From Thraustochytrium aureum (lineage: Eukaryota): 64,000 bases of DNA. The notes beneath the pieces are model-generated. The model saw only the letters and a program-made list of their open reading frames with translations, had not been told where the DNA came from and did no database searches. The translations under genes were made by a program, and so were the position numbers. Within the stretch, counting starts at the first letter, position 1, and the number at the start of each line of letters is the position of its first letter. Positions 34,675 to 64,000 of the stretch are shown piece by piece. The stretch spans positions 236,411 to 300,410 of the forward strand of contig BLSG01000411.1 of assembly GCA_012862495.1 (NCBI GenBank), in the 5' to 3' direction.

Positions 34675-36540
34675 ATGGGCTGCGCCGGGTCGCATCCTGC
34701 AGCAGCGGCTGCCAGCAGAGCGCAAGCGCCTGTTCAAGCCGGCCAAGGAGACGGAGCAGCGGAGACGCACATTTTCTTGGCTGTGAACGGGTCCTCCGGA
34801 GGCCAGAGCGCCGCGCAACTGCTCGACATGGCCCTGCCCAAGTTTCAGGTCGAGCTCCGAGAGGGCGTGGAGGCATGGGTGCATGTCTTCAACCTTAAAG
34901 TAGAGGCCAAGCGCGAGGCTAACATGCGGCTGCTGGCCGACTTGGCCAACGACCCGAACGCCAACCACGACGTCCGCATCGTGGCTTGCGGCGGGGACGG
35001 CACGGTCAAGTGGGTGATCTCGCTGCTGTCGCAGGTCAGCGCATTGCACGTGCCGATCGGCGTGATTCCCTTCGGAACCGGCAACGACCTCGCTCGCGTA
35101 ATGGGCTGGGGAGCAAAGCCGCCGAGTCCCCTCATCGGCGTGGCGCTCAAGGCGCTCCGCGGGCGGCTGCGAATGATCTATGACGCGGAACGCATCCCGC
35201 TTGACGTCTGGATCTGCTCGGTCGAGCTGCGCGAGTCGGACCGAGCCAAGTTCGAGGAAGTCAAGGACAAGAAGATAGTGGTCACGAACCAAGGGCGGCG
35301 TTCCATCTCGCAAGAAATGATCAACTACTTCTCCATCGGCGCCGATGGCGAGCTCATGTTTGCGTTTGAGCAGAACCGGAGGAAGACCCAGTTCGGGAAC
35401 AAGACCGTGTACGCGGAGAAGGGCCTTCTCCAGGCGGTGTTGCCCCCCCCGACGCTCAAAACGTTTGTTGACTCTGCAGTTCAAAGCGCAGACGCAGTTG
35501 CGCCCGCCAGTCTGACGGCAGTTGAGGCGGCAGAGGACGTCGCTAGGGCTCGAGGCAGCGCGGGCAGTGCGGCTGCAGAGGGCGCTGTGTCTGAAGGCGT
35601 CGCTGAGGCGGCAGCAGAGGCTGCGGCCTTGGAGGACGTTGCTCAGCCTGAGGAGGCCAGCGGCGTTGCTGCAGGGCGATCTGCGCGGCCGCTCGCGTTC
35701 AAGCCTGGGGACCGTCAGCTTCTCTTCCTGAACATCCCTAGCTATGGCGCTGGCGCCGACCCATGGCGCCGATCCGGGGATGCCAAGGGCAAGTCGAAGC
35801 GCGGGCTGCAGGCCCAGTACGTTGGAGACCGCAAGGTGGAGGTCCTTTCGGTGAAGAGCACCGCCAACGTGGGCATTTCGCTCACGACAGGCATCAAGGC
35901 TGGGATCCACCGCATCGTGCAGGGGTCGGCCTTTGAGGTCTCCTTCAAGCCAGGTTCAGACGTCTACTTTCAAGTGGACGGCGAGGCGCTCAAGGCAAGC
36001 GACGCGGAGAGGGTCTCGGTGCGCCACGGGTATCAAGTGCAGTTGCTTCGTGCCAAGAAGGCCAAGGCCCGCTCGTTCCCTCACGGGGAGGAGCCGCAGG
36101 GGCTCGGGCTGTTGCCCGGCCAGATTGTCGCCCCAACTGTGCGTCCCGACGCGGCCCTCTCGCCCTCGGACGTGGAGCCCAGAGTCCCGAGCGCTGCCGC
36201 GGTCGACGATGGAGCCGTCGTTGCCCCGGACGCCGCCAGCGAGGACGCTGCCAGCGACGGGGCTCCATCTGAACCGCCTCAGGTTGATGCGCCGCCTCGC
36301 GTGGCCGACCTCCCAGCGGGAGGTCCAAGCGATGAGGAGTCGAGGGCGGGCACAAGCCCAGATGTAGTAGCCTCAGGCTCTGACGCAAGTGAGGCTGAAA
36401 GCAAGGGCGTCCCGAACGCCGAGTCCACGATCCTCGCGGTCGACAGCGATCCTGTCGGCACGGGGAACGGGATGGAGCTCGCCAAGTCCGAGTTGACCCC
36501 GAGCCAAGAAGCGATTGAGCTCGGCCCCACCTTGCAGTAG
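34675..36540 (+). CDS. Diacylglycerol kinase (catalytic + accessory domains), MGC N-terminal acylation motif
   Basis: [70 protein letters not shown]. Confidence 0.93.
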
Positions 36541-41861: not shown

Positions 41862-43184
41862 TCAAGCCAATACCCTGGCGACACCATGCAACTCCGAGAG
41901 CGCTGGCTGAAACTTGATCGTTTGTCGCCCAAAACCGTTGCGCACAAAAAGCAGTGCAGATTNNNNNNNNNNNNNNNNNNNNNNNNNNNNNNNNNNNNNN
42001 NNNNNNNNNNNNNNNNNNNNNNNNNNNNNNNNNNNNNNNNNNNNNNNNNNNNNNNNNNNNNNNNNNNNNNNNNNNNNNNNNNNNNNNNNNNNNNNNNNNN
42101 NNNNNNNNNNNNNNNNNNNNNNNNNNNNNNNNNNNNNNNNNNNNNNNNNNNNNNNNNNNNNNNNNNNNNNNNNNNNNNNNNNNNNNNNNNNNNNNNNNNN
42201 NNNNNNNNNNNNNNNNNNNNNNNNNNNNNNNNNNNNNNNNNNNNNNNNNNNNNNNNNNNNNNNNNNNNNNNNNNNNNNNNNNNNNNNNNNNNNNNNNNNN
42301 NNNNNNNNNNNNNNNNNNNNNNNNNNNNNNNNNNNNNNNNNNNAACTTCCGTGCCCACAGATGTGCCCGGCCAACATTCGAACACTACATGCAGAGACGC
42401 AATCCGCATACCTAAGCACGAGTTGCTCGGCAGCTAACTTGCTCTCGGCAGTCGAGTTTGGGCTGACAAGGATCGAGCATATCTGTACCGACTTTGGCAC
42501 TCTCTGGTTTCTCTTCATCTCCTGGCACGAGTGCCATTTGTGGACCATTCCTGACGCAACCCGTGGCAGCGACTTGCGCATCATTGTCACGGTTTCGCTA
42601 CTGAGCCATCCTTTGTGGCCCTGCTCGATGCCGGCGTGAAGGGGGAGGTGATTATAGCGCAGCCCGCGTGCACACGAGTCGACGCTCTTGCCAATCCTAA
42701 CTCTGAGCGCGAGCTTTTCAAGCGCCGAAAACTCATTGGTCATGTTCTCCTTCGCCGAACGAGCAATCTGTTCATCGCATTTGTACATGAGTGTGTTGTA
42801 CAGAAAAGTCGTGCCGGTCTTCGGAATGTGGAGCCATTCGATTCTCTGGGGCGCTCGGGGATGGGCAGATTGCCGCAGGAACGCGGGCTGCAAGTCCTTT
42901 GGCTCATCCTGCGATGAGTTGGCGGTCCCACTCGGGCTGTGTTCGGATTCTACATCCAAGGAGATGAGCTTTGGTGTCGCGGGTAAATCTGTGCCCCTCC
43001 CCTCGTTCACTGTCTCGCCAGCGTCGGCCAGCACTTGCCCAACACCGCGACCAACTTGATAAGGCGCGCTCGGCCACCCTGCGAGCTGGACGGGCTTGAG
43101 TGTGACCAGCACAGCAGCGACAACGAGGCAAAGCATCGCTTTCACACCAGAGCCGCACGACGGCCTCGTCGGAAACTTCTTCAT
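41862..43184 (-). CDS. Type II membrane sulfotransferase-like protein, copy 1 (interrupted by gap; 3' end uncertain)
   Basis: N-terminal TM (MLCLVVAAVLVTL), 5'-PAPS-binding-like WLHIPKTGTTF, VTMMRKSLPRVASG corresponding to the RxPxxRxxS element. Confidence 0.7.
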   Translation of the reverse strand: MKKFPTRPSCGSGVKAMLCLVVAAVLVTLKPVQLAGWPSAPYQVGRGVGQVLADAGETVNEGRGTDLPATPKLISLDVESEHSPSGTANSSQDEPKDLQPAFLRQSAHPRAPQRIEWLHIPKTGTTFLYNTLMYKCDEQIARSAKENMTNEFSALEKLALRVRIGKSVDSCARGLRYNHLPLHAGIEQGHKGWLSSETVTMMRKSLPRVASGMVHKWHSCQEMKRNQRVPKSVQICSILVSPNSTAESKLAAEQLVLRYADCVSACSVRMLAGHICGHGSXXXXXXXXXXXXXXXXXXXXXXXXXXXXXXXXXXXXXXXXXXXXXXXXXXXXXXXXXXXXXXXXXXXXXXXXXXXXXXXXXXXXXXXXXXXXXXXXXXXXXXXXXXXXXXXXXXXXXXXXXXXXXXXXSALLFVRNGFGRQTIKFQPALSELHGVARVLA

Positions 43185-45971: not shown

Positions 45972-47318
45972 ATGAAGCAGTTTCCGATGAGGCTGTCGTG
46001 CGGCTCTGGTGTGAAAGCGATTCCTTGCCTCGTTGTCGCTGCTGTGCTGGTCACGCTCAACCCCGTCCAGCTCGCAGGGTGGCCGAACGTGCCTGATCAC
46101 GTTGTTCGCGGTGTTGGGCAAGCGCTGGCCGACGCTGGCAAGACAGTGAACGAGGGGAGGGGCACAGATTTACCCGCGACTCCAAAGCCCATCTCCTTGG
46201 ATGTAGAATCCGGACACAGCCTGAGTGGGACCGTCAACTCATCGCAGGATGAGCTAGAGGACTTCTTGCAGCCCGCGTTTCTGCGGCAATCTGCCCAACG
46301 CCGAGCGCCCCAGAAAATCGAATGGCTCCACATTCCGAAGACCGGCACGACTTTTCTGTATAGCGTACTCATGTACAAATGCGATGAGCAGATTGCTCGT
46401 TTGGCGAAGAAGAACATGTCCAACGAGGTTTCGGAGCTCGAAAAGCTCGCATTGGAGGTCAGGTCGGGCAAGAGCCTCGACTTGTGCACACGCGGACTGC
46501 GCTTTCATCACCTCCCCCTTCACGCGGGCGTCGAGCAGGGCCACAAAGGATGGCTCAGTAGCGAAAGCGTGACAATGATACGCAAGTCGCTGCCACGGGT
46601 TGCGTCAGGAATGGTCCACAAATGGCACTCGTGCCCGGAGATGCAGGCCGACCGGAGAGTGCCAAGGTCGGCAGAGGTATGCTCGATCCTTGTCAGCCCA
46701 AACTCGACTGCCGAGAGCAAGTTAGCTGCCGAGAAACTAGTGCTTAGGTATGCGGATTGCGTCTCTGCATGTAGTGTTCGAATGTTGGCCGGGCACATCT
46801 GTGGGCACAGAAGTAACAAGTCCCAACCTAATGAGATCAAGGTGCGAGAAGCTGTTACAAAGGTTGACCGACTGGCCTTTGTGGGAATCACAGAGCACTG
46901 GGCAGCGTCGACTTGTTTGTGGCAAGAGCGTTTCAAGAGGCCTTCGGGCCGTGCCTATCCAGTCGAGGACATCAACACAAAACANNNNNNNNNNNNNNNN
47001 NNNNNNNNNNNNNNNNNNNNNNNNNNNNNNNNNNNNNNNNNNNNNNNNNNNNNNNNNNNNNNNNNNNNNNNNNNNNNNNNNNNNNNNNNNNNNNNNNNNN
47101 NNNNNNNNNNNNNNNNNNNNNNNNNNNNNNNNNNNNNNNNNNNNNNNNNNNNNNNNNNNNNNNNNNNNNNNNNNNNNNNNNNNNNNNNNNNGTGTTTTGT
47201 GTGCAGCTGTGTTGGGCGACAAACGATCAAATTCCAGCCAGCGCTCTCGGACTTGCATGGGGCCAAGGAATCCGAAAGCTTAGCCAGATCATGGCCCAGC
47301 TCATTGCCGTGCTCGTGA
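45972..47318 (+). CDS. Type II membrane sulfotransferase-like protein, copy 2 (inverted paralog; spans gap; 3' end uncertain)
   Basis: Collinear with copy 1 (IEWLHIPKTGTTFLY, KSLPRVASGMVHKWHSC); also LAFVGITEHWAASTCLW, matching the sulfotransferase FVG.TE element. Confidence 0.75.
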   Translation: MKQFPMRLSCGSGVKAIPCLVVAAVLVTLNPVQLAGWPNVPDHVVRGVGQALADAGKTVNEGRGTDLPATPKPISLDVESGHSLSGTVNSSQDELEDFLQPAFLRQSAQRRAPQKIEWLHIPKTGTTFLYSVLMYKCDEQIARLAKKNMSNEVSELEKLALEVRSGKSLDLCTRGLRFHHLPLHAGVEQGHKGWLSSESVTMIRKSLPRVASGMVHKWHSCPEMQADRRVPRSAEVCSILVSPNSTAESKLAAEKLVLRYADCVSACSVRMLAGHICGHRSNKSQPNEIKVREAVTKVDRLAFVGITEHWAASTCLWQERFKRPSGRAYPVEDINTKXXXXXXXXXXXXXXXXXXXXXXXXXXXXXXXXXXXXXXXXXXXXXXXXXXXXXXXXXXXXXXXXXXXXXXCFVCSCVGRQTIKFQPALSDLHGAKESESLARSWPSSLPCS

Positions 47319-48559: not shown

Positions 48560-50072
48560 ATGGGGGTGCATCGAGTCCAAGGCGCCCCCGGCGGCGCCTG
48601 AGCCCACGCCGCTGGGCGAGCTGGACGCGCAGGTCTTCCTGATGGTGAACGGAACGAGCGGCGGGCAAGCCTCCAAGCAGCTGCTCGAGATGGACGAGAG
48701 CGAGTTCGAGTGGACGAGCAAGAAGGGCAAGCAGGTCAAGGTGTGGGTATTTGACCTGCGAAGCAGCGATTCACGTTCAGCCGGATTCGCTCGCGTGAGC
48801 GAGGAAAGCAAGCGCGTCAAGTCTGGCGCCGGCAAAAGCGACCTGCGCGTCGTCGCATGCGGCGGGGACGGAACCGTCAAGTGGGTGATCAGCGAACTTT
48901 CCAAGGTCGACTGCCTCCACTTGCCGATCGGGGTGATCCCGTTCGGCACCGGCAACGACTTTAGCCGCGCCATGGGTTGGGGCGCCTCAGCGCCAAGCAC
49001 CCTCATCGGCAAGAAAAAGGCCGCGCTAAAGGCGCGCATGGAAGTCGTAATTGAGAGCAAGGTGGGCCCCCTTGACACCTGGCTGTGCGATATCACTGTG
49101 CGCGACGATGGCTTGTTCAAGGAGGTCAAGGACGGCAAGATCACCACGACGCACGAGGGCCAGCGCACGATCACGCACGAGTGCATCAACTACCTCAGCT
49201 GCGGCGCGGACGCCCAGATCGTGTTTGAGTTCGAGCAGAGCCGAACCAAGAGCCAGATTGGGAACAAGTGGGTCTACGTCAAGAAGGGGACGAACCAGGT
49301 TGTCAACCGGCCGCGCAAGCTGAAAAAAATGGTCGCAGCTCTCGAGGACGAGCAAGGCGAGGCAATCAAGTTTCGCAAGCGCGACCGCGTGCTAGCGTTC
49401 CTCAACATCCCGTCGTACAGTGCGGGCGCCAACATCTGGCGCCCGGGCAAGGGCCGCTACGGCACCTTCACCTCGCAGTTCGTTGGCGACAAGCGGCTTG
49501 AAGCGGTCACCGTGCACACCACCACTGACGTCGCTGTGCACATCGCCACCGGGTCCCACCTGGGGATTTTCCGCGTCGCGCAGGCGGGCGGGTACAACAT
49601 CAACTTCAAGGAGGGCTCGCACGTCTACGTTCAGGTCGACGGGGAGGCCATCAAGGCCGAAAACCTTGCCAACATCACCATTCGCCACGGCTACCAAGTC
49701 AACGTGCTGCGCAGCCCCAAGGCCAAAGCGCGCTCGAGTCCCGCGTCCAAGGCGCCGGCCAAATCTGCCACCCCCGAGCAGCTAGGCGGCGAGGTCGACG
49801 ACGCTGGAGACGTGGACGACTCGATAGTTGCGACGGTCGCCTCTGCGGCCAAAATCACCGTCATTGAAGAGGAGGGTGTTCAGTCGGACGACGAGGACGA
49901 GTCCCCCGAGGGCGCAGACGATGAGCAGCCCGACGAAGCGACGCCCGTTGCCCAAGTCACCTTTGACGAGGAGGACACTGAAGCGCTCACTAAAGCCGCT
50001 CTCATCATGCAAAAGAAGATCCGCTTGCGCGCCAAGGCAGCCCAGCCGCAAGCTGGACCTGCATCCGAATAG
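48560..50072 (+). CDS. Diacylglycerol kinase paralog 2 (apparent +1 frameshift in a G-run at codon 2)
   Basis: Same DGK motifs ([34 protein letters not shown]). Removing one G from ATGGGGGTGC gives MGCIESKAPPAAPEPTPLGELDAQVFL in frame with the 48642 ORF. Confidence 0.9.
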
Positions 50073-56837: not shown

Positions 56838-57437
56838 TCAATTGGGCCCCCGCTGCATTGCGCCGCGGGCAAACCCCAGCGGCGCTTCGTCTTGAGACGC
56901 AAAGAAGGCCATGCTGTTGACGGTGTGAATGTTGAAGTAGAAGCGCTCTGGAAAGTCTTCGAGCTCTTGTAGGAGCTCAGCTGTTGTCATGTTGGTCACC
57001 TGGCCTTCGACTCGCACTCCCGGGACATCCAGCTGCACTGCGCGAAACTGCCTGTTCAGCTGCGTGCAAGGTACTGGGTATGGAGTTCCATCGTCAAGGA
57101 GGGTTGAAGAGCCGCAAAAGTTGATCACCGGCGGGCCAAAGCCCGTTTTTGCGTTGCCTTCGTCCACAATGTGGATGTGGGCCGCGACGATAGGCGAGAT
57201 TCCGTTCCACTGCTTGAACGTCGTGCTGCAGGATATCGTCGGCTCGGAAACTCCGCTTGCGGTCGCGTTGCAGAGCTGGCAGGTCAACGCTCCTTGCGCC
57301 TTGATGAATCCGAACTCTGCGGTGCCGCGGAGATTGTCCCCAACGCCGAGCTTCGCGGTCAGCATCGTGCAGCTGGTTTGTGCAGCGTGAGCCTGTGCAG
57401 CGCCGAGGGCCAGGGCGAGTGCAATTTGGACCTTCAT
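56838..57437 (-). CDS. Secreted single CHRD-domain protein
   Basis: Signal peptide MKVQIALALALGAAQAHA; GTAEF, IVAAHIH, GPPVINF, PERFYFNIHT, GFARGAM. Confidence 0.82.
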   Translation of the reverse strand: MKVQIALALALGAAQAHAAQTSCTMLTAKLGVGDNLRGTAEFGFIKAQGALTCQLCNATASGVSEPTISCSTTFKQWNGISPIVAAHIHIVDEGNAKTGFGPPVINFCGSSTLLDDGTPYPVPCTQLNRQFRAVQLDVPGVRVEGQVTNMTTAELLQELEDFPERFYFNIHTVNSMAFFASQDEAPLGFARGAMQRGPN

Positions 57438-58878
57438 GTCGTTTGTTTTGATCGAGTTGGAGCTTGGGAGCGCGAGTCTTGTGTTTGGTGTTTTGGTCTC
57501 TGGTGTTTTGGTGTCTGGTTGCATCTGGCGCCGCGAGCACGTTGAGGAAGCTGGCTACGTTGACCAGACGCCGCCGCGAGCNNNNNNNNNNNNNNNNNNN
57601 NNNNNNNNNNNNNNNNNNNNNNNNNNNNNNNNNNNNNNNNNNNNNNNNNNNNNNNNNNNNNNNNNNNNNNNNNNNNNNNNNNNNNNNNNNNNNNNNNNNN
57701 NNNNNNNNNNNNNNNNNNNNNNNNNNNNNNNNNNNNNNNNNNNNNNNNNNNNNNNNNNNNNNNNNNNNNNNNNNNNNNNNNNNNNNNNNNNNNNNNNNNN
57801 NNNNNNNNNNNNNNNNNNNNNNNNNNNNNNNNNNNNNNNNNNNNNNNNNNNNNNNNNNNNNNNNNNNNNNNNNNNNNNNNNNNNNNNNNNNNNNNNNNNN
57901 NNNNNNNNNNNNNNNNNNNNNNNNNNNNNNNNNNNNNNNNNNNNNNNNNNNNNNNNNNNNNNNNNNNNNNNNNNNNNNNNNNNNNNNNNNNNNNNNNNNN
58001 NNNNNNNNNNNNNNNNNNNNNNNNNNNNNNNNNNNNNNNNNNNNNNNNNNNNNNNNNNNNNNNNNNNNNNNNNNNNNNNNNNNNNNNNNNNNNNNNNNNN
58101 NNNNNNNNNNNNNNNNNNNNNNNNNNNNNNNNNNNNNNNNNNNNNNNNNNNNNNNNNNNNNNNNNNNNNNNNNNNNNNNNNNNNNNNNNNNNNNNNNNNN
58201 NNNNNNNNNNNNNNNNNNNNNNNNNNNNNNNNNNNNNNNNNNNNNNNNNNNNNNNNNNNNNNNNNNNNNNNNNNNNNNNNNNNNNNNNNNNNNNNNNNNN
58301 NNNNNNNNNNNNNNNNNNNNNNNNNNNNNNNNNNNNNNNNNNNNNNNNNNNNNNNNNNNNNNNNNNNNNNNNNNNNNNNNNNNNNNNNNNNNNNNNNNNN
58401 NNNNNNNNNNNNNNNNNNNNNNNNNNNNNNNNNNNNNNNAATTAGCGTCAGAATTTCGCCCGATTCCCAGCCCCAGGTCCAGCCTCCAAGCTGGAATTCC
58501 AACAATACGCTGTTTCTCTTGAATTCCGTAAATTCACCGAGGATGGTGCATAATGTTACCCATTTTAGATAACAGCAAGGTTACACATCTGAAAACACGG
58601 GGCATCGGAATTTCCAATGCGTTGCTACTATTTATAGTAATGAGTCTTAAGGCGTTGCCTCTCCGACGACTCGCAAAGCGGTTTAGTCCGGTACCCGATT
58701 CCATGGCCTTGTGCTCCTATGAAACAAGACCCCGTGTCAGTATACCGTTCTCAACAGATCTCAAGCCCGCAGTATCTGTCTGCCTACTTGCGCGCCACTT
58801 CGGCGCGCGGCTGAAACGCTTCCGCGCTACTCTCTCTCCGCGCTGGCCGAAGGGGATCGAGAAAAACGGCTAGAGCCT

Positions 58879-58922
58879 CCGCGCCAAGTCCGCGCCAAGC
58901 GTCCGCGCCAAGCCGCGCCAAG
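58879..58922. repeat. Four copies of the decamer CCGCGCCAAG
   Basis: At 58879, 58890, 58903 and 58913, upstream of the resolvase ATG. Confidence 0.9.
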
Positions 58923-59079
58923 CCATGCTCTGGAGTCAAGTTCATCGCTGCTTGCACGCACGCCAACCTCACACAGGCAAGCAAATCCTCTTCCGCGTCG
59001 TGACCGTCGAAGCGGATTGGTCTGGGCGCACGCGATTAACGCCGCGGCTGGGTGGGTGGTCGAGCCTGAGGGTGGAAGG

Positions 59080-60048
59080 ATGTCCGGCATCCGAGCTGAA
59101 TCGCCAATCGACGTGACGGAAGCGAATGAGGAGGCACAAGCCCCTGCGTTCAGCATTGCGACAATGACGCCCACGGGCAGCACGACGTCCACAAGCAACA
59201 CACAGAACGACAGATTCCGTAACGCAAAGAGGGCTGCGCCATCGGCATCGCACCCAAGATCAGATTTGGAAGCGCCCGACTCGTCAACTGTCGCCGTGAG
59301 ACCGGGCAAGGCGATTCCACATTGGTTTGGAAAGCAGCAACAAAAGGCCCCAAAGGGAATCCAACCAACGCGGCGGATCCTGAGCTTCGACTGTGGCGAA
59401 GCCAACCTTAGCTTCTGTATGCTAAGCGGTGAAGTGCGACCCGTTGTCGCGGTTGGCGGCACCTCTATCGAGCACGTGGACTGGGTGGGGCTCTCGGGCG
59501 TGCAGATCTTGAAATGGCAGCGCGTGGACCTGAAAGCGCAATACATGGAAGGCAAGCGCCTGGATCGGAGTGTAGCTGAGCTTGGGGAAAGCCGCAAACA
59601 GCGAAGAGTAGGACTTGTAAGCTCCTCGTCCGGAAAAGCCAAACTCACAAAACTTCAACTTGCAGAAGCACTGACCAATTTCCTGTGTGACAAAGACCAG
59701 CAGTGGATGAAGACGATGCCAACGCTTATCGTGATTGAGCAACAAGTGCGGGAAAATGCTCGCATGGTCACACTATCGGCGATACTGGCAAGCTTTTTCT
59801 GTCAGGCGGGTATACCGGTCCGATCGTGCCTGGCGAAATCAAAGTTCGCGTTCCTGCCTGAGCCCCTGCGAAGCCCACCTGCAAGGACAGTGCGTCGGTA
59901 CAAAAGCCACGCAATTTCCATTGCGATTGCCGTAGTGAAATCGCTTAATCTAGAAGCCGCCTTTGCAGAGCAGCTAGCAGAGCCAAAGCTTGACGACTTG
60001 GCCGATGCCTTGCTGCAGGGCCTGAACTCACTTTGCTGCTTTCGATAG
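59080..60048 (+). CDS. RuvC-fold Holliday-junction resolvase, poxvirus A22/NCLDV or Ydc2/Cce1 type
   Basis: RILSFDCGEANLSFC (Asp 59389), LIVIEQQ (Glu 59737), AKSK, YKSHAISIA, KLDDLADALLQG (Asp 59992, 59995, 60004). All acidic catalytic residues are present. Confidence 0.85.
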   Translation: MSGIRAESPIDVTEANEEAQAPAFSIATMTPTGSTTSTSNTQNDRFRNAKRAAPSASHPRSDLEAPDSSTVAVRPGKAIPHWFGKQQQKAPKGIQPTRRILSFDCGEANLSFCMLSGEVRPVVAVGGTSIEHVDWVGLSGVQILKWQRVDLKAQYMEGKRLDRSVAELGESRKQRRVGLVSSSSGKAKLTKLQLAEALTNFLCDKDQQWMKTMPTLIVIEQQVRENARMVTLSAILASFFCQAGIPVRSCLAKSKFAFLPEPLRSPPARTVRRYKSHAISIAIAVVKSLNLEAAFAEQLAEPKLDDLADALLQGLNSLCCFR

Positions 60049-60124
60049 CCTCGCTCTCTAGCTAGTAGAGCTCTGCCAGAGCATAGTTTAAAAAAAAGTG
60101 CTTCAGATTTTTACCTTGCAGTTG

Positions 60125-63100
60125 CTAAGTTACATTTGGTCGGTTGGCGCGATGTTGGTTGTCGAGTTCTTGCGGTGCCGGCGGTGTCGGCGCCGACTCA
60201 GGCGGACGAGGCTGCGAAGCTGGAGGCGGTTGCACTGGCAGAGACGAAGATGATGGTTGAGAGCTTGACGCTGGTTGAGAGCTTGACGCATTTGGAAGCG
60301 GAACTTCTCCACGCCTTGGCGCGGCAGAGATTACAGTTCTGTGTTGTGCCCTTGGTGGGTGCCCCTGGAGGGACCGCCGAGATTCTTCAGAGATCAAATA
60401 GATTGCGAGTCTGTTGTAGTTGAGCACCCCTCCTGCGCTTGATGCTTGCACGTTGCAGCCGTCAGCAAGGAGCTGATCATACTTGGCGGCAAACCTTTGA
60501 TCGGCGAAGGCTTTTCGGCGCTCACTGACATTTCCGCTGCCAGATGCAGACGATTCTTGGATTCCAGCGCACGCCTCGTTCATGCCCAGGCTGTACAAGG
60601 CCGCGATCGCCTTGCACTTGGACCATCTCTTCTGGCCCGACAGCCCTTGGGCATAGATCCCTTTGTTGATCTTCTCGGCTCTGAAACACTCCTCGAGCCT
60701 CAACAGAGGGCGCTGGAACCGCGGATTACCTGTATCTGGGTCATCCACGCGCACGCCATTGTAGAACAGGTTCCAGAGGAAGTAGGGTTCGTTCGCAAGG
60801 GTGGGCTGCTGCAAACCTGCTGCAATCGCGAGTAGCGCCTCCTTCGAGTCAGCTTGTGACACAACTGCGATATTCGGAGACGGCCGGCCCACCGCAGCAA
60901 CCCGCGCGCGGCTTGCATCGCCCTGTCCTGATGCGCTGCGAGTCGCGGTTGGTGGCTTCGGTGCAGCACCTGGGACTTGCGAGGCGGGACTGTGTGAAGA
61001 GGAGCTCGAAGAAGTTTGAAGGGGGTCAGCCGTTGGCTCTTGAGTTCGCATGGTAGAGCCGCTGCTCGCAACACGAGGCCTCTTTGCTTGCTTGAGAAAG
61101 GAGCGCCCCCCCCCCATCCTGCTTGCACGGTCTTGGCCTCGATCTGGAGCCCGGACGCGCTTGGAGGCTTCCTGCGCTCGCGGCAAGTCACTCGCATCGC
61201 TCTCATCACCTAGCCCACAATCATCGTCAGACTCGTGCACATCGTGCGAGCGGCTGGTCGAGCCAGCTCGACCTCGAGCCCTACCTGATAGAGCGGCATG
61301 CATAGTCAGCAACTTTTCGTCGAAACTGCTCGCAGCGACTTCAATGGCGCTTTGAGATGCAATTTGACAGTTGCGCACGTCAGTGCGATACCTCTCTATC
61401 GAGTTTCGCGCCGCCTCGACCGCCTTTGTCGCGTTGTGAACAAGGCCCATTACTTGGCCTTGGTTCGCTGCGAGTTTTTGGAGCGCCGCGAGGAGCTCCT
61501 GAGAGAAGCCGAGGGAGGCGATGTTGTAGTCGTCCAAGGTCATGACTTTCCGCACTTCGTCACGAACCCTGACCTGGAAACTCGGCCAAAGTGCATGCTC
61601 GAAGACTGGGTGCTGGTAGACCGGCAAGTTGTTGAATTTGTCCTTCATGGGGGTGCCATCCAGGGTGCCGTCCCACGGAGCCGCTGCGTCTTGAAGGAAG
61701 ACGTTTGCCATGTACAGAAAGTAGTCAACAAGCCCTTGCGTGGCGAGGAACAAGTGGGCTTGTTCTGGTTTGTGGCTCTGCGGATTGCTGGCACGCCAAA
61801 ACGGGCTCGCAAGGCACTCGATGTCGTTTTCGAGAGATGGAAAGATCAAGGCGACCAGTGGCCAGAACTCGGAGCCCGGCCTGATCATGGGCACTTGCCG
61901 CGGCATACACCACGACTTGCCGTCTGGAACAAAGCCGGTGCTTCCGCGAACAGCCTTGGTCGACGGTCGGCTGCGGTAAAACAGTTGCCGCACGCTCTTG
62001 CTCTTTGCACCCGTAGACTTTTTGGACGCGTCGACGCTCCAGCCAGCGTGGTACTCGATCTCTTCGCTGTCCGCGGTGTTGAAGTCGGAGAGCTTCCGTC
62101 CGATCTTTGTGATTGCTGGGCTGTGGATGTTTGCTCTCTTGAGCATGCAGTGGTAGTCGACCCGCATGACGTTGTAGGGCACGGGCTTCTCCCCGTCCGC
62201 GGGGCCTGGGCGTACGTAAACGGTCCGCTTATACCACGCCGCTCGCGTGCTGATGTCCGGCCACGCGCGGAATCGCCCACCTGGTGTGTGAAAGGAAAAC
62301 TGGAACACCTCAAGCCGCGCCCTGTCACCCTGACCGCAAAGGATGACATCCCTGTCCCGGCCTTCAAAGGTTGCCCACTTGTGCGAGCCGCGGATGTTTT
62401 TGGCCTTTTGGATCTGCACTCCAACGAGGTAAGGTGTGATGTCCTGTGTTGGGCTGGTCCCAAGGTCGGGACACGGGAAGGCGCTCACGTCCATCAGCTT
62501 TTTGTCACGCTCTTGCTCACCACGGATATAAGTGTGCATCTGGCAGCCGAACATGGCCAGGGTGTTGAGGATTCGGTGCGGGTTTGCCAAGAATTTGCAC
62601 TCTGCTTTCCACGTTTTGAGGGCGTTCCGGTGGTCGTCAGCAGCCTTTCGCTGGAAAGCCGCCTCCTCCTCTTCGGTGCGCTCCTCGGCACTAGCAGCCT
62701 CGCCGCGCTTTTCAAGAAGGAGCTGGTAAGTCTTGACGTCTGGAGCCTCGCGCTCGGTTTGGGCGAGGAGACTGATTTTCATCTGCCGCAGGGACTCTTT
62801 GTCAAACTTGTCGAGGTGGCTCTCGAGCGCAGACTCGTCAAAGGCTTTCATTGCCCGCTGGTTCTTCTCCCTCTTGCGTTCCAAGACGTACGCCCTAACC
62901 ATCTTGTCTTGCGGGCCTGCCTCGACGGCGCTAAACAAGTGCGGCAGGCAAATCTTTTCCCGCTCGAACATGAACAGAATAGCCGACGTGTACTTTGTCA
63001 GTGTATCTGTGCTCAAATGGGCCAGGTGTTCTGACTGGAGGAAGAGGATCACCCTGGGACTCGTTGTGAAAGGTGGTTCAAAACCCAGTTTGCCTGCAAA

Positions 63101-63640
63101 GGAGTCTGGCTGGCGGCCACAGGTATCAAACACCCAGGTAATGTACTTGAGGGCGTACGGCTTGTACTGCGTGCGGAGTCTGCCTGTGTCGTGCCCATCG
63201 TCCAAAATTGTGGCGCACTGCCGCCGGAGGGTCTCTCGAAGCAGGATGTCCCGACCCTCCGCCTCCTCGCCTGAGATTGCCTGCCCCGAATCCTGGAGGT
63301 ATTTTGTGAGCTGAGCAAAGGCGATTTCCTCATCGAACTCGCAAAGACCTGCGAGGTATCCATTGATTGACGCGTCTCGGCTGCTTGAGTTGGCAGTGAC
63401 ACTGTCAAGCTCATCGTCGTCGAGGCAGGCGCTCTCGTTTCCGTCATCGCTGGAGCTGTATTCAACCTCGTCCGCGAGGGCCTCGGCAGTAGATTCAACG
63501 TCGAGGTTCACAGTCTGCTGTCCACGCTCCAAGCTCTTTCCGGAACACACGCTTGCTTCGTCTTCATCACTGTCTTTGGCGGCTCTGACTGCTTTGCGCT
63601 TCTGCGCGGTTACGGTCTTGTTTTTCCGCGTTCGCCCCAT
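60125..63640 (-). CDS. Crypton (CryptonF-like) tyrosine recombinase: NDC10-II-like YR domain plus C-terminal GCR1_C-like domain
   Basis: YIRGE..R...LMD, QKAKN, RDRDVILCGQG, WPDISTRAAWY, AITKIGRK, HAGW, FYRSRP, GF...MPRQ, IFPSLE, VFLQDAA, PVYQHPVF; GCR1_C-like LWNLFYNG..PLLRLEE..KRWSKCKAI. Uninterrupted 1171-aa ORF. Confidence 0.85.
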   Translation of the reverse strand: MGRTRKNKTVTAQKRKAVRAAKDSDEDEASVCSGKSLERGQQTVNLDVESTAEALADEVEYSSSDDGNESACLDDDELDSVTANSSSRDASINGYLAGLCEFDEEIAFAQLTKYLQDSGQAISGEEAEGRDILLRETLRRQCATILDDGHDTGRLRTQYKPYALKYITWVFDTCGRQPDSFAGKLGFEPPFTTSPRVILFLQSEHLAHLSTDTLTKYTSAILFMFEREKICLPHLFSAVEAGPQDKMVRAYVLERKREKNQRAMKAFDESALESHLDKFDKESLRQMKISLLAQTEREAPDVKTYQLLLEKRGEAASAEERTEEEEAAFQRKAADDHRNALKTWKAECKFLANPHRILNTLAMFGCQMHTYIRGEQERDKKLMDVSAFPCPDLGTSPTQDITPYLVGVQIQKAKNIRGSHKWATFEGRDRDVILCGQGDRARLEVFQFSFHTPGGRFRAWPDISTRAAWYKRTVYVRPGPADGEKPVPYNVMRVDYHCMLKRANIHSPAITKIGRKLSDFNTADSEEIEYHAGWSVDASKKSTGAKSKSVRQLFYRSRPSTKAVRGSTGFVPDGKSWCMPRQVPMIRPGSEFWPLVALIFPSLENDIECLASPFWRASNPQSHKPEQAHLFLATQGLVDYFLYMANVFLQDAAAPWDGTLDGTPMKDKFNNLPVYQHPVFEHALWPSFQVRVRDEVRKVMTLDDYNIASLGFSQELLAALQKLAANQGQVMGLVHNATKAVEAARNSIERYRTDVRNCQIASQSAIEVAASSFDEKLLTMHAALSGRARGRAGSTSRSHDVHESDDDCGLGDESDASDLPRAQEASKRVRAPDRGQDRASRMGGGRSFLKQAKRPRVASSGSTMRTQEPTADPLQTSSSSSSHSPASQVPGAAPKPPTATRSASGQGDASRARVAAVGRPSPNIAVVSQADSKEALLAIAAGLQQPTLANEPYFLWNLFYNGVRVDDPDTGNPRFQRPLLRLEECFRAEKINKGIYAQGLSGQKRWSKCKAIAALYSLGMNEACAGIQESSASGSGNVSERRKAFADQRFAAKYDQLLADGCNVQASSAGGVLNYNRLAIYLISEESRRSLQGHPPRAQHRTVISAAPRRGEVPLPNASSSQPASSSQPSSSSLPVQPPPASQPRPPESAPTPPAPQELDNQHRANRPNVT

Positions 63641-64000
63641 TTCTGTGGTTTGCTGGCCTGGTTAGCGCCTCGTTCAGCGATCACCGGCGCCCCTTTGTGC
63701 TCTTTGGGTGCCTGCTGCTGTGCTGTTGCCGGCTGCCCTTGTTGTCTTGCGTGCTGTCGCTGAGTTGCGGTTTTGCTCACCGAGTTGATTGAACGTGTCT
63801 GGGTCTAGAGGCTGCCTTTTGCTTTGCTTCTTGGCAAGGCTCCACACCTGCTTAGCACTCTGCGCCACGAGATCCGCGCTGTGAACTCCGCGCTACACGC
63901 TCGTCGCGTTCTGCGCTGCTCGTTCGAAGCGGTGTCGTGCGTCGCCAATTTGAAAATCGCTCACGACTGGCGTTCTCGATCAATCAAACAGCAGAGTCGA

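What the first reader, a model, noticed from the sequence alone, without database searches (positions are those of the whole stretch)
58440..63640. Crypton tyrosine recombinase paired tail-to-tail with an A22/Ydc2-type Holliday-junction resolvase: candidate new two-gene mobile element
Seen: two intact intronless ORFs converge with only 76 bp between their stops, directly after an ~860-nt gap and an A/T-richer non-coding flank. One has the NDC10-II/CryptonF YR motifs plus GCR1_C; the other has the complete D-E-DDxxD RuvC resolvase site. Established: tyrosine recombinases work through a Holliday-junction intermediate, and A22-type resolvases cut four-way junctions and resolve viral concatemers. 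Inference: the element may encode its own resolvase to finish or redirect a half-completed YR reaction (single-strand-pair exchange, replicative integration, or resolution of circular/concatemeric intermediates). I am not aware of Cryptons described with this cargo, but I could not search.
Basis: partly seen in the sequence, partly recalled or inferred. Interest (0 to 1): 0.9.

Follow-up and report, generated by a model that had tools for sequence, protein, structure and literature searches.

The report
Crypton-like element carrying viral-type resolvase
In a protist genome, an intact Crypton-type DNA recombinase gene and an intact giant-virus-type junction-cutting nuclease gene sit tail to tail on a stretch that appears about three-fold amplified in one related sample, and they likely form one mobile element whose nuclease would finish the recombinase's half-done DNA exchanges.

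Summary
Both ORFs are real. 60125-63640(-) encodes a divergent CryptonF/NDC10-II-type tyrosine recombinase. Its H-x-x-R histidine is replaced by lysine, and GCR1_C was not detected. 59080-60048(+) encodes a giant-virus A22-type resolvase with a complete D-E-D-D site.

The 76-nt spacer is weak evidence, because host convergent pairs are also close. Stronger evidence: in public sample S1, contigs over both genes have 2.6-3.5 times the depth of the host flank, and one contig bridges the spacer. Both genes therefore appear amplified together.

Against: this rests on one sample, and another organism's run shows no excess. A diverged second copy branches off without a detectable resolvase. Resolvase polymorphisms show no constraint. 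The element's ends are not visible, and linkage in other species could not be tested.

Best reading (0.45): a CryptonF-like element whose own resolvase cuts stalled Holliday junctions. Rivals: the arm of a larger endogenous virus, a host duplication, or passenger cargo.

A recombinase plus A22 pair is published for a polinton-like virus and for phaeoviruses; I found none for Cryptons. This scan earlier noted Crypton-plus-resolvase pairs on other DNA (unchecked notes).

The parts
59080..60048 (+). A22-type (Nucleocytoviricota-like) RuvC Holliday-junction resolvase, 322 aa: a low-complexity N-terminal ~98 aa, then the nuclease domain; catalytic codons D104 (59389), E220 (59737), D306 (59995), D309 (60004)
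   Evidence: Pfam; Atlas top hits are Nucleocytoviricota A22 clusters at 0.93-0.94; alignment A4; the A4 profile hits poxvirus resolvases 6P7B/6P7A/5E6F and Ydc2 1KCF; a viral-only profile finds this frame at E 6e-18
60125..63640 (-). CryptonF/NDC10-II-type tyrosine recombinase, 1171 aa; catalytic region about aa 345-700 (62608-61541) with R373, K414, K512-x-x-R515, W534, Y555
   Evidence: residue roles assigned by alignment to homologs and by recalled CryptonF motifs
60049..60124 (.). 76-nt convergent spacer with the host-type CTCTAG motif and an A/T run; bridged by one contig of run X2 (59758-60254)
58446..63983 (.). Stretch with raised contig depth in run X1 (12.1 over 58446-60065, 13.7 over 60090-60469, 16.1 over 60608-63983 and 214 nt beyond) against 3.9-5.5 in the host flank: the minimal amplified unit; neither end is defined
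58445..58487 (.). 43-bp segment shared with a second sequence outside the window (depth 16.2 in X1; also seen in X3, X4 not shown, X5, X7): an internal repeat, a target remnant or an att-like core; unexplained
   Evidence: loose ends (X1, X3, X5; X1, X7); no other 11-mer match in the window
60405..60659 (-). Part of the recombinase C-terminal region (aa 994-1079) shared with a second, diverged copy; that copy leaves the window sequence on both sides
   Evidence: X1 records 5, 6 and 8 (depths 6.35, 19.3, 4.4)
58821..58927 (+). Cluster of five TCCGCGCY motifs (likely a host-type promoter) followed by an ATG at 58925 that is out of frame with the resolvase in this sequence, X1 and X2, but in frame in one low-depth record of X10
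63873..63894 (+). Two TCCGCGCY motifs upstream of the recombinase start
57582..58439 (.). 858-N assembly gap between the low-depth host genes and the high-depth unit; may hide the left end

Best explanation
The two intact genes likely belong to one low-copy CryptonF-like DNA element that captured a giant-virus-type A22 resolvase, and this nuclease would cut the Holliday junctions that the element's tyrosine recombinase is predicted to leave unfinished.

Shown: both genes, their families, the complete nuclease site, the R-K-K-R-W-Y set of the recombinase, their physical link, and raised depth over both in one sample.

From established knowledge: tyrosine recombinases work in two strand-exchange steps through a Holliday junction. 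Cryptons recombine at 4-6-bp matches. Poxvirus resolvase cuts branched DNA with little sequence preference.

Inferred: (1) The recombinase pairs the element end (or an excised circle) with a short target and makes the first exchange. (2) With so little homology, and with lysine in place of the H-x-x-R histidine plus an insertion before the tyrosine, the second exchange often stalls. (3) The resolvase dimer cuts the unexchanged strand pair and host ligase seals the nicks, completing excision or integration. Cutting junctions met by a replication fork, or multimeric circles, would let the element gain copies rather than only move.
For: Depth in X1: 12.1 / 13.7 / 16.1 across resolvase, spacer side and recombinase. 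The six flank contigs shown (of 59 records laid) have a length-weighted 4.66, giving ratios 2.6-3.5; per bin the ratio is 4.0. The GC-matched CHRD gene has depth 4. X2 (same sample): all 8 records shown (of 12 laid) lie in the unit, and one bridges the spacer. About 13.7 of the 16.1 depth units of the intact recombinase continue toward the resolvase. Copy state differs between organisms (X4 ratio 1.14), as expected for a mobile or variable unit. There are no stops among 23 coding substitutions; the recombinase has 8 of 16 synonymous (p 0.023 vs neutral). The resolvase is of viral A22 type. CryptonF/S elements are known to carry second genes (PMC3212892; PMC13565253). Active CryptonF excises cleanly yet gains copies, with no mechanism known (PMC9977147).
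Against: Multi-copy evidence comes from one sample (X1 = X2), the runs were found through this stretch, and the tool warns that contig depth is not a copy number. X4 shows no clear excess (1.39 vs 1.22). No ends, direct repeats or empty site were seen. A diverged copy (depth 4.4-6.35) continues for about 1.7 kb without laying on the resolvase. Resolvase substitutions are 6 nonsynonymous to 1 synonymous, which is compatible with no constraint (p 0.87 for a synonymous excess; the difference from the recombinase is not significant, Fisher p 0.18). The lost histidine and undetected GCR1_C could mean decay or domestication. Promoter-like and 3' motifs are host-type, and divergence between runs tracks host genes. 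In integrons, half-reaction junctions are resolved by replication and do not need RuvABC (PMC3458562). No second genome with this linkage was found by my own calls.
Confidence: 0.45

Rival explanations
1. The two genes are the left arm of a larger integrated or episomal DNA element (a polinton-like virus, another endogenous virus, or a giant cargo element). The recombinase integrates it and the A22 resolvase serves viral replication or integration.
For: The right end is beyond the window; X1's contig runs on 214 nt past 63983. OmPLV encodes Y-rec plus a PF04848 resolvase, and its authors suggest the resolvase resolves integration structures (PMC12721341). Ectocarpus phaeovirus EVEs all encode an A22-like resolvase (PMC13236599). 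The 43-bp segment is shared with a sequence of matching depth, 16.2 vs 16.1.
Against: No capsid, ATPase or polymerase gene lies in the 5.5 kb seen. The recombinase is NDC10-II/Crypton-like, and no relative was found in viral contigs by pattern scans or in 0 of 182 overlapping A22-bearing loci. GC content and flanking motifs are host-like.
Confidence: 0.2
2. A host segment was duplicated in one isolate. The recombinase is a settled or domesticated Crypton gene and the resolvase is an independent host gene (for example a mitochondrial Ydc2/Cce1-like enzyme of viral origin), so the two are neighbours by chance.
For: The locus is present in four coded organisms with host-like divergence. X4 has no depth excess. 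Short convergent spacers are normal here. The histidine is lost; domesticated CryptonF genes such as Ndc10 lose catalytic residues (PMC3212892). One X10 record puts an upstream ATG in frame, giving an Arg-rich leader like a mitochondrial presequence (depth 2.7, may be an error).
Against: The depth step falls at the gap that borders these two genes. R, K, R, W and Y are kept. The window, X1 and X2 have the upstream ATG out of frame. All Atlas clusters shown for the resolvase are viral, none eukaryotic. A second, diverged recombinase copy exists, as expected for a transposon family.
Confidence: 0.2
3. The unit is a Crypton-like element, but the resolvase is a captured passenger that plays no part in transposition and may be decaying.
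For: 6 of 7 resolvase substitutions are nonsynonymous; the start codon is uncertain; one diverged recombinase copy lacks it.
Against: At 23-30% identity to viral A22 proteins, every catalytic and several junction-binding positions are invariant, which implies long selection for nuclease function. No stop was seen in any run laid.
Confidence: 0.15

Closest known systems
CryptonF DNA transposons (Goodwin 2003; Kojima and Jurka 2011, PMC3212892; CryptonF-1_cRei, PMC9977147)
   Same: NDC10-II-type tyrosine recombinase with an N-terminal helical region and a long C-terminal extension; some families carry a second gene (C48 peptidase, DDE transposase, Fanzor).
   Different: The second gene here is an A22-type resolvase. 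The H-x-x-R histidine is lysine, GCR1_C was not detected, terminal direct repeats could not be seen, and the closest relatives are only 27-34% identical and unnamed.
Oxyrrhis marina polinton-like virus, OmPLV (PMC12721341)
   Same: Integrated eukaryotic mobile DNA encoding both a tyrosine recombinase and a Pox_A22 resolvase; its authors propose a role in resolving integration structures.
   Different: OmPLV has capsid, packaging ATPase, helicase-polymerase and terminal inverted repeats. None is seen in the 5.5 kb available, and the recombinase here is Crypton-like.
Phaeovirus endogenous elements of Ectocarpus (PMC13236599)
   Same: Tyrosine-recombinase-bearing endogenous elements that also encode an A22-like resolvase.
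   Different: Giant viral genomes, where A22 is discussed for replication; here there are only two genes in a host-like setting.
Poxvirus A22 / fowlpox resolvase (PDB 6P7A, 6P7B; PMC6962361) and giant-virus A22 proteins; S. pombe Ydc2 (1KCF)
   Same: D-E-D-D active site with matching spacing; end-to-end alignment with giant-virus A22 at 23-30% identity.
   Different: About 98-aa low-complexity N-terminal extension; lacks the cysteine motif of the long giant-virus forms; encoded beside a eukaryotic recombinase.
Integron integrase pathway (PMC3458562)
   Same: A tyrosine recombinase that performs only the first strand exchange.
   Different: Resolved by replication and independent of RuvABC, so it is a precedent for the half reaction but against the need for a resolvase.

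Membership tests
CryptonF | Tyrosine recombinase of the CryptonF/NDC10-II type | tested here: met
   Relatives at E 6e-30 to 3e-24, three of five stored relatives above the NDC10_II cut-off; Atlas 0.96 with NDC10_II clusters; direct match weak
CryptonF | Catalytic R-H-R-Y tetrad | tested here: not met
   R373, R515 and Y555 present; the histidine position is K512, while all four relatives that cover it have H. Activity untested; lysine at this position in type IB topoisomerases and protelomerases is recalled, not checked
CryptonF | C-terminal GCR1_C domain | tested here: not met
   No Pfam hit up to E 10 on aa 930-1050 or on two homolog C-termini; MAFFT aligns the region but without significance. 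A divergent domain is not excluded
CryptonF | 4-6-bp terminal direct repeats, no long terminal repeats | not testable with these tools
   Left end at or in the gap, right end beyond the window; no genome held
CryptonF | Dispersed copies or insertion polymorphism | tested here: inconclusive
   About 3-fold depth in sample S1, none clear in X4, one diverged copy; positions of copies unknown
A22-type Holliday-junction resolvase | D-E-D-D active site in RuvC order | tested here: met
   D104, E220, D306, D309 invariant in A4; fowlpox D7, E60, D132, D135 (PMC6962361 passages); profile hits 6P7B
A22-type Holliday-junction resolvase | RNase H-like fold | tested here: inconclusive
   Single-sequence model pLDDT 35.9; Foldseek found no match
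A22-type Holliday-junction resolvase | Cleaves four-way junctions | not testable with these tools
   Needs an assay
Mitochondrial Ydc2/Cce1 | Mitochondrial presequence and single-copy host gene | tested here: inconclusive
   Leader in frame only in one low-depth X10 record. The Pfam Ydc2 label does not discriminate, since viral L074 also scores higher on it than on Pox_A22
Polinton-like virus | Capsid, A32 ATPase, terminal inverted repeats | not testable with these tools
   None in 58440-64000; the rest of the unit is outside the window
Fanzor/TnpB | TnpB-type RuvC with zinc finger and omega RNA | tested here: not met
   Only Ydc2/A22 families hit; no Rfam match at gathering scores

The most novel reading that the evidence does not exclude
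A family of eukaryotic tyrosine-recombinase transposons has outsourced the second strand exchange to its own virus-derived Holliday-junction resolvase. The recombinase, with a topoisomerase-like K-x-x-R site, makes only the first exchange, and the resolvase's choice of strands decides between excision, integration and copy gain. The 43-bp shared segment would be an att-like core.
Probability: 0.25. Interest if true: 0.85.

Novelty: new variant of a known kind. Interest (0 to 1): 0.6.

Why it matters
Crypton transposition has not been demonstrated experimentally (PMC13565253, passages), and an active CryptonF both excises cleanly and gains copies by an unknown route (PMC9977147, passages). An intact element with its own junction-cutting enzyme gives a two-protein system in which the Holliday-junction step can be tested directly. 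It would also be a case of a giant-virus replication gene recruited by a transposon, and a recombinase-plus-resolvase route to integration at very short target matches.

Tried and rejected
No whole genome is held, so copies and ends could not be searched directly.

Searches that found nothing:
- Word-based protein searches, for either gene.
- Single-sequence PDB searches: nothing meaningful; the recombinase profile had no PDB hit.
- Pattern scans for recombinase relatives: no confirmed locus in metagenome, viral or prokaryote contigs. The single-protein resolvase scan and the phage tblastn found none.
- The 30-nt edge pattern: 0 matches in viral contigs.
- The recombinase profile: no hit in 182 A22-bearing loci, many of them overlapping.
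- PHROGs: only chance-level hits.
- Exact look-up: 0 of 8 window proteins in the collection.

Both AlphaFold models were made without alignments and are unusable (pLDDT 33 and 36); the fold search on one was meaningless. No terminal or long inverted repeats and no unusual folding were found in the flanks. No RNA holder was listed on record; X5 and X7 are only guessed to be RNA, so their thin cover of the unit is not used as evidence on expression.

Rejected: the 76-nt spacer and the A/T-rich flank as evidence of one element (host pairs look alike); the Pfam Ydc2 label as evidence of a mitochondrial gene; Fanzor identity; the 578-aa opposite-strand ORF as a gene (it is the codon-aligned shadow frame of the recombinase). 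The host was not identified; a thraustochytrid-like stramenopile is a guess from recall and was not tested.
Full report
Setting. The window is an intron-poor eukaryotic scaffold of about 60% GC with nine N-gaps. Left of the last gap lie ordinary host genes: a diacylglycerol kinase, a myotubularin, a Laminin_G_3-like protein and a CHRD-like protein. No whole genome is held, and 0 of 8 window proteins looked up are in the protein collection. The host was not identified.

The two ORFs. Both are as described: 59080-60048(+), 322 aa, and 60125-63640(-), 1171 aa, with 76 nt between the stops, right of an 858-N gap.

The resolvase. It passes the Ydc2-catalyt cut-off and nearly reaches Pox_A22. All five Atlas rows shown are Nucleocytoviricota clusters at 0.91-0.94. 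I gathered A22-bearing viral loci with a motif scan and ranked them (scores inflated by the selecting motif). I aligned 17 of the 120 with the window protein, chosen mainly from the top ranks plus two short forms. Identity is 23-30% end to end, and D104, E220, D306 and D309 are invariant, matching fowlpox D7, E60, D132, D135 (PMC6962361, passages). The alignment profile hits poxvirus resolvases and Ydc2 in the PDB. The top viral loci carry TFIIB, small-chain ribonucleotide reductase and DUF5767, so they are giant-virus contigs. One of these viral proteins also scores higher on the Ydc2 model than on Pox_A22, so the Pfam label does not make the window gene mitochondrial.

The recombinase. It has no Pfam hit whole and a weak NDC10_II match on aa 350-580. 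Atlas neighbours are diatom and oomycete clusters and NDC10_II clusters at 0.96-0.97. The full HMMER search gave 4 hits. P0004, P0005 and the cluster member P0007 pass the NDC10_II cut-off; P0003 does not, and P0006 is truncated. A profile without the window sequence finds the ORF at E 3.6e-71. In the alignment, R373, K414, R515 and Y555 match the relatives, and W534 matches two of four. The H-x-x-R histidine, one of the catalytic pentad in Cre and Flp (PMC4381057, passages), is K512 here and H in all four relatives that cover it, and about 10 extra residues precede Y555. GCR1_C was not detected by three tests. I therefore call it CryptonF-like and do not file it as a CryptonF member.

Is the pairing more than adjacency? 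The spacer does not show it. Among eight hand-picked host convergent pairs, five have gaps of 108-204 nt and six hold the same CTCTAG motif. The left flank's 47.5% GC equals a host spacer's 48.1%, and the TCCGCGCY motif upstream of both genes also occurs outside the unit (7 of 19 matches are in the unit's flanks).

Depth evidence. Ten public runs hold part of the stretch; I laid seven of them in two calls. In X1, contigs over 58446-60065, 60090-60469 and 60608-63983 have depths 12.1, 13.7 and 16.1. The six flank contigs shown have 3.9-5.5 (weighted 4.66), so ratios are 2.6-3.5, or 4.0 per bin, which counts uncovered flank as zero. In X2, from the same sample, the unit averages 1.24 and the flank 0.05, and one contig bridges the spacer. 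Both genes therefore appear amplified together in sample S1, and the homology does not end in the spacer.

Limits of the depth evidence. It is one sample, the runs were selected through this stretch, and the tool warns that summed contig depth is not a copy number. X4, another coded organism, shows 1.39 vs 1.22. Divergence from the window is similar for unit and flank (0.18 vs 0.45% in X1; 0.44% in X5 vs 0.45% in X7; 1.28% in X3 vs 1.9% in X4), so there is no sign of recent horizontal arrival. X1 also holds a second, diverged copy that shares 60405-60659 and leaves on both sides; its 1752-nt left contig does not lay on the resolvase at 80% identity. Of 23 coding substitutions none is a stop. 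The recombinase has 8 of 16 synonymous (p 0.023) and the resolvase 1 of 7, which is compatible with neutrality. Neither end of the unit is visible. A 43-bp segment at the gap edge is shared with another sequence of depth 16.2 and remains unexplained.

Other genomes. I could not test linkage. No scan returned a locus for the recombinase, and its profile hit 0 of 182 A22-bearing loci. The scan's own notes list a Crypton with an A22/Ydc2-like gene in Rozella (e1-9755806) and Cryptons with YEN1 or RusA resolvases (e1-7284068, e1-7617607, e1-7550844). These are unchecked notes; I use them as leads and not as support.

Mechanism. Tyrosine recombinases exchange strands in two steps through a Holliday junction (PMC4381057). 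Cryptons recombine at 4-6-bp repeats and are proposed to move through circles (PMC3212892, text parts 1-2 of 7). Fowlpox resolvase cuts junctions without sequence preference. I infer that this recombinase makes the first exchange, often stalls, and that the resolvase cuts the other strand pair; cutting junctions during replication could explain copy gain. That would address an open point: CryptonF-1_cRei excises cleanly yet rises in number (PMC9977147, passages), and Crypton transposition is not experimentally demonstrated (PMC13565253, passages). Against it, integron half-reactions are resolved by replication without RuvABC (PMC3458562, passages). My split is 0.45 functional coupling, 0.15 passenger in the same element, 0.2 arm of a larger virus-like element, 0.2 host duplication.

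Novelty. Nine literature searches found no Crypton described with a Holliday-junction resolvase. Listed second genes are C48 peptidase, DDE transposase, HTH and Fanzor (PMC3212892; PMC13465315 passages). The six supplements of PMC3212892 hold 0 occurrences of resolvase, RuvC or Holliday. The pairing of a tyrosine recombinase with an A22 resolvase is published for OmPLV (PMC12721341, passages) and for phaeovirus EVEs (PMC13236599, passages). Passages of PMC5718144, PMC12220804, 10.64898/2026.07.28.741200 and 10.64898/2026.09.21.753150 added nothing on this pairing. Repbase entries, subscription papers and preprint supplements could not be seen and may hold a description.

Verdict. A real and unusual gene pair, probably on one repeated unit: a new variant of a known kind, interest 0.6. 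The functional link is plausible and testable but not shown.

Noticed in passing
window 62726-62791: One contig of run X7 (guessed RNA, depth 3.3, 31 letters on the short side) skips 66 nt with GT..AG ends on the + strand, i.e. antisense to the recombinase and in phase with the 578-aa shadow ORF 61298-63034; possibly a spliced antisense transcript.
   Followed up: partly
window 58445-58487: 43-bp segment shared with another sequence that has about 3.5 times host depth in X1 and is also present in X3, X5 and X7; it could be an att-like core, an internal repeat of the element or a piece of a multicopy host gene.
   Followed up: partly
window 59105-59187: X7 shows a backward joint with 10 letters between (93 nt by my count, frame-preserving), and X3 a loose end at 59105: a tandem expansion in the resolvase's low-complexity N-terminus.
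   Followed up: no
window 58925 and 58970: An upstream ATG in good context is out of frame with the resolvase here, but a 2-nt shorter dinucleotide run in one X10 record brings it in frame with an Arg-rich leader.
   Followed up: partly
window 3916, 15051, 26507, 29099, 32678, 56732, 60056: CTCTAG recurs in 6 of 8 host convergent spacers and in the 76-nt spacer; a candidate 3'-end signal of this organism.
   Followed up: no
P0003-P0007: The only relatives of the recombinase among 1.84 billion representatives (4 hits, plus one cluster member) are unnamed 464-1111-aa proteins from ENA and Logan: a deep, undescribed branch of NDC10-II-type recombinases.
   Followed up: partly
window 41862-43184 (-) and 45972-47318 (+): Two paralogous ORFs broken by assembly gaps; a multicopy family by depth (11.9 in X1 at 46.0-46.6 kb). 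The label 'sulfotransferase-like' is recalled and untested.
   Followed up: no
window 34675-36540 and 48642-50072: Two diacylglycerol-kinase-like genes 12 kb apart; the second was confirmed by Pfam, the first only resembles it by eye.
   Followed up: no
window 56838-57524 (-): Small gene with a hydrophobic leader and a weak CHRD-domain match (E 1.1e-4, just under cut-off) directly left of the gap.
   Followed up: no
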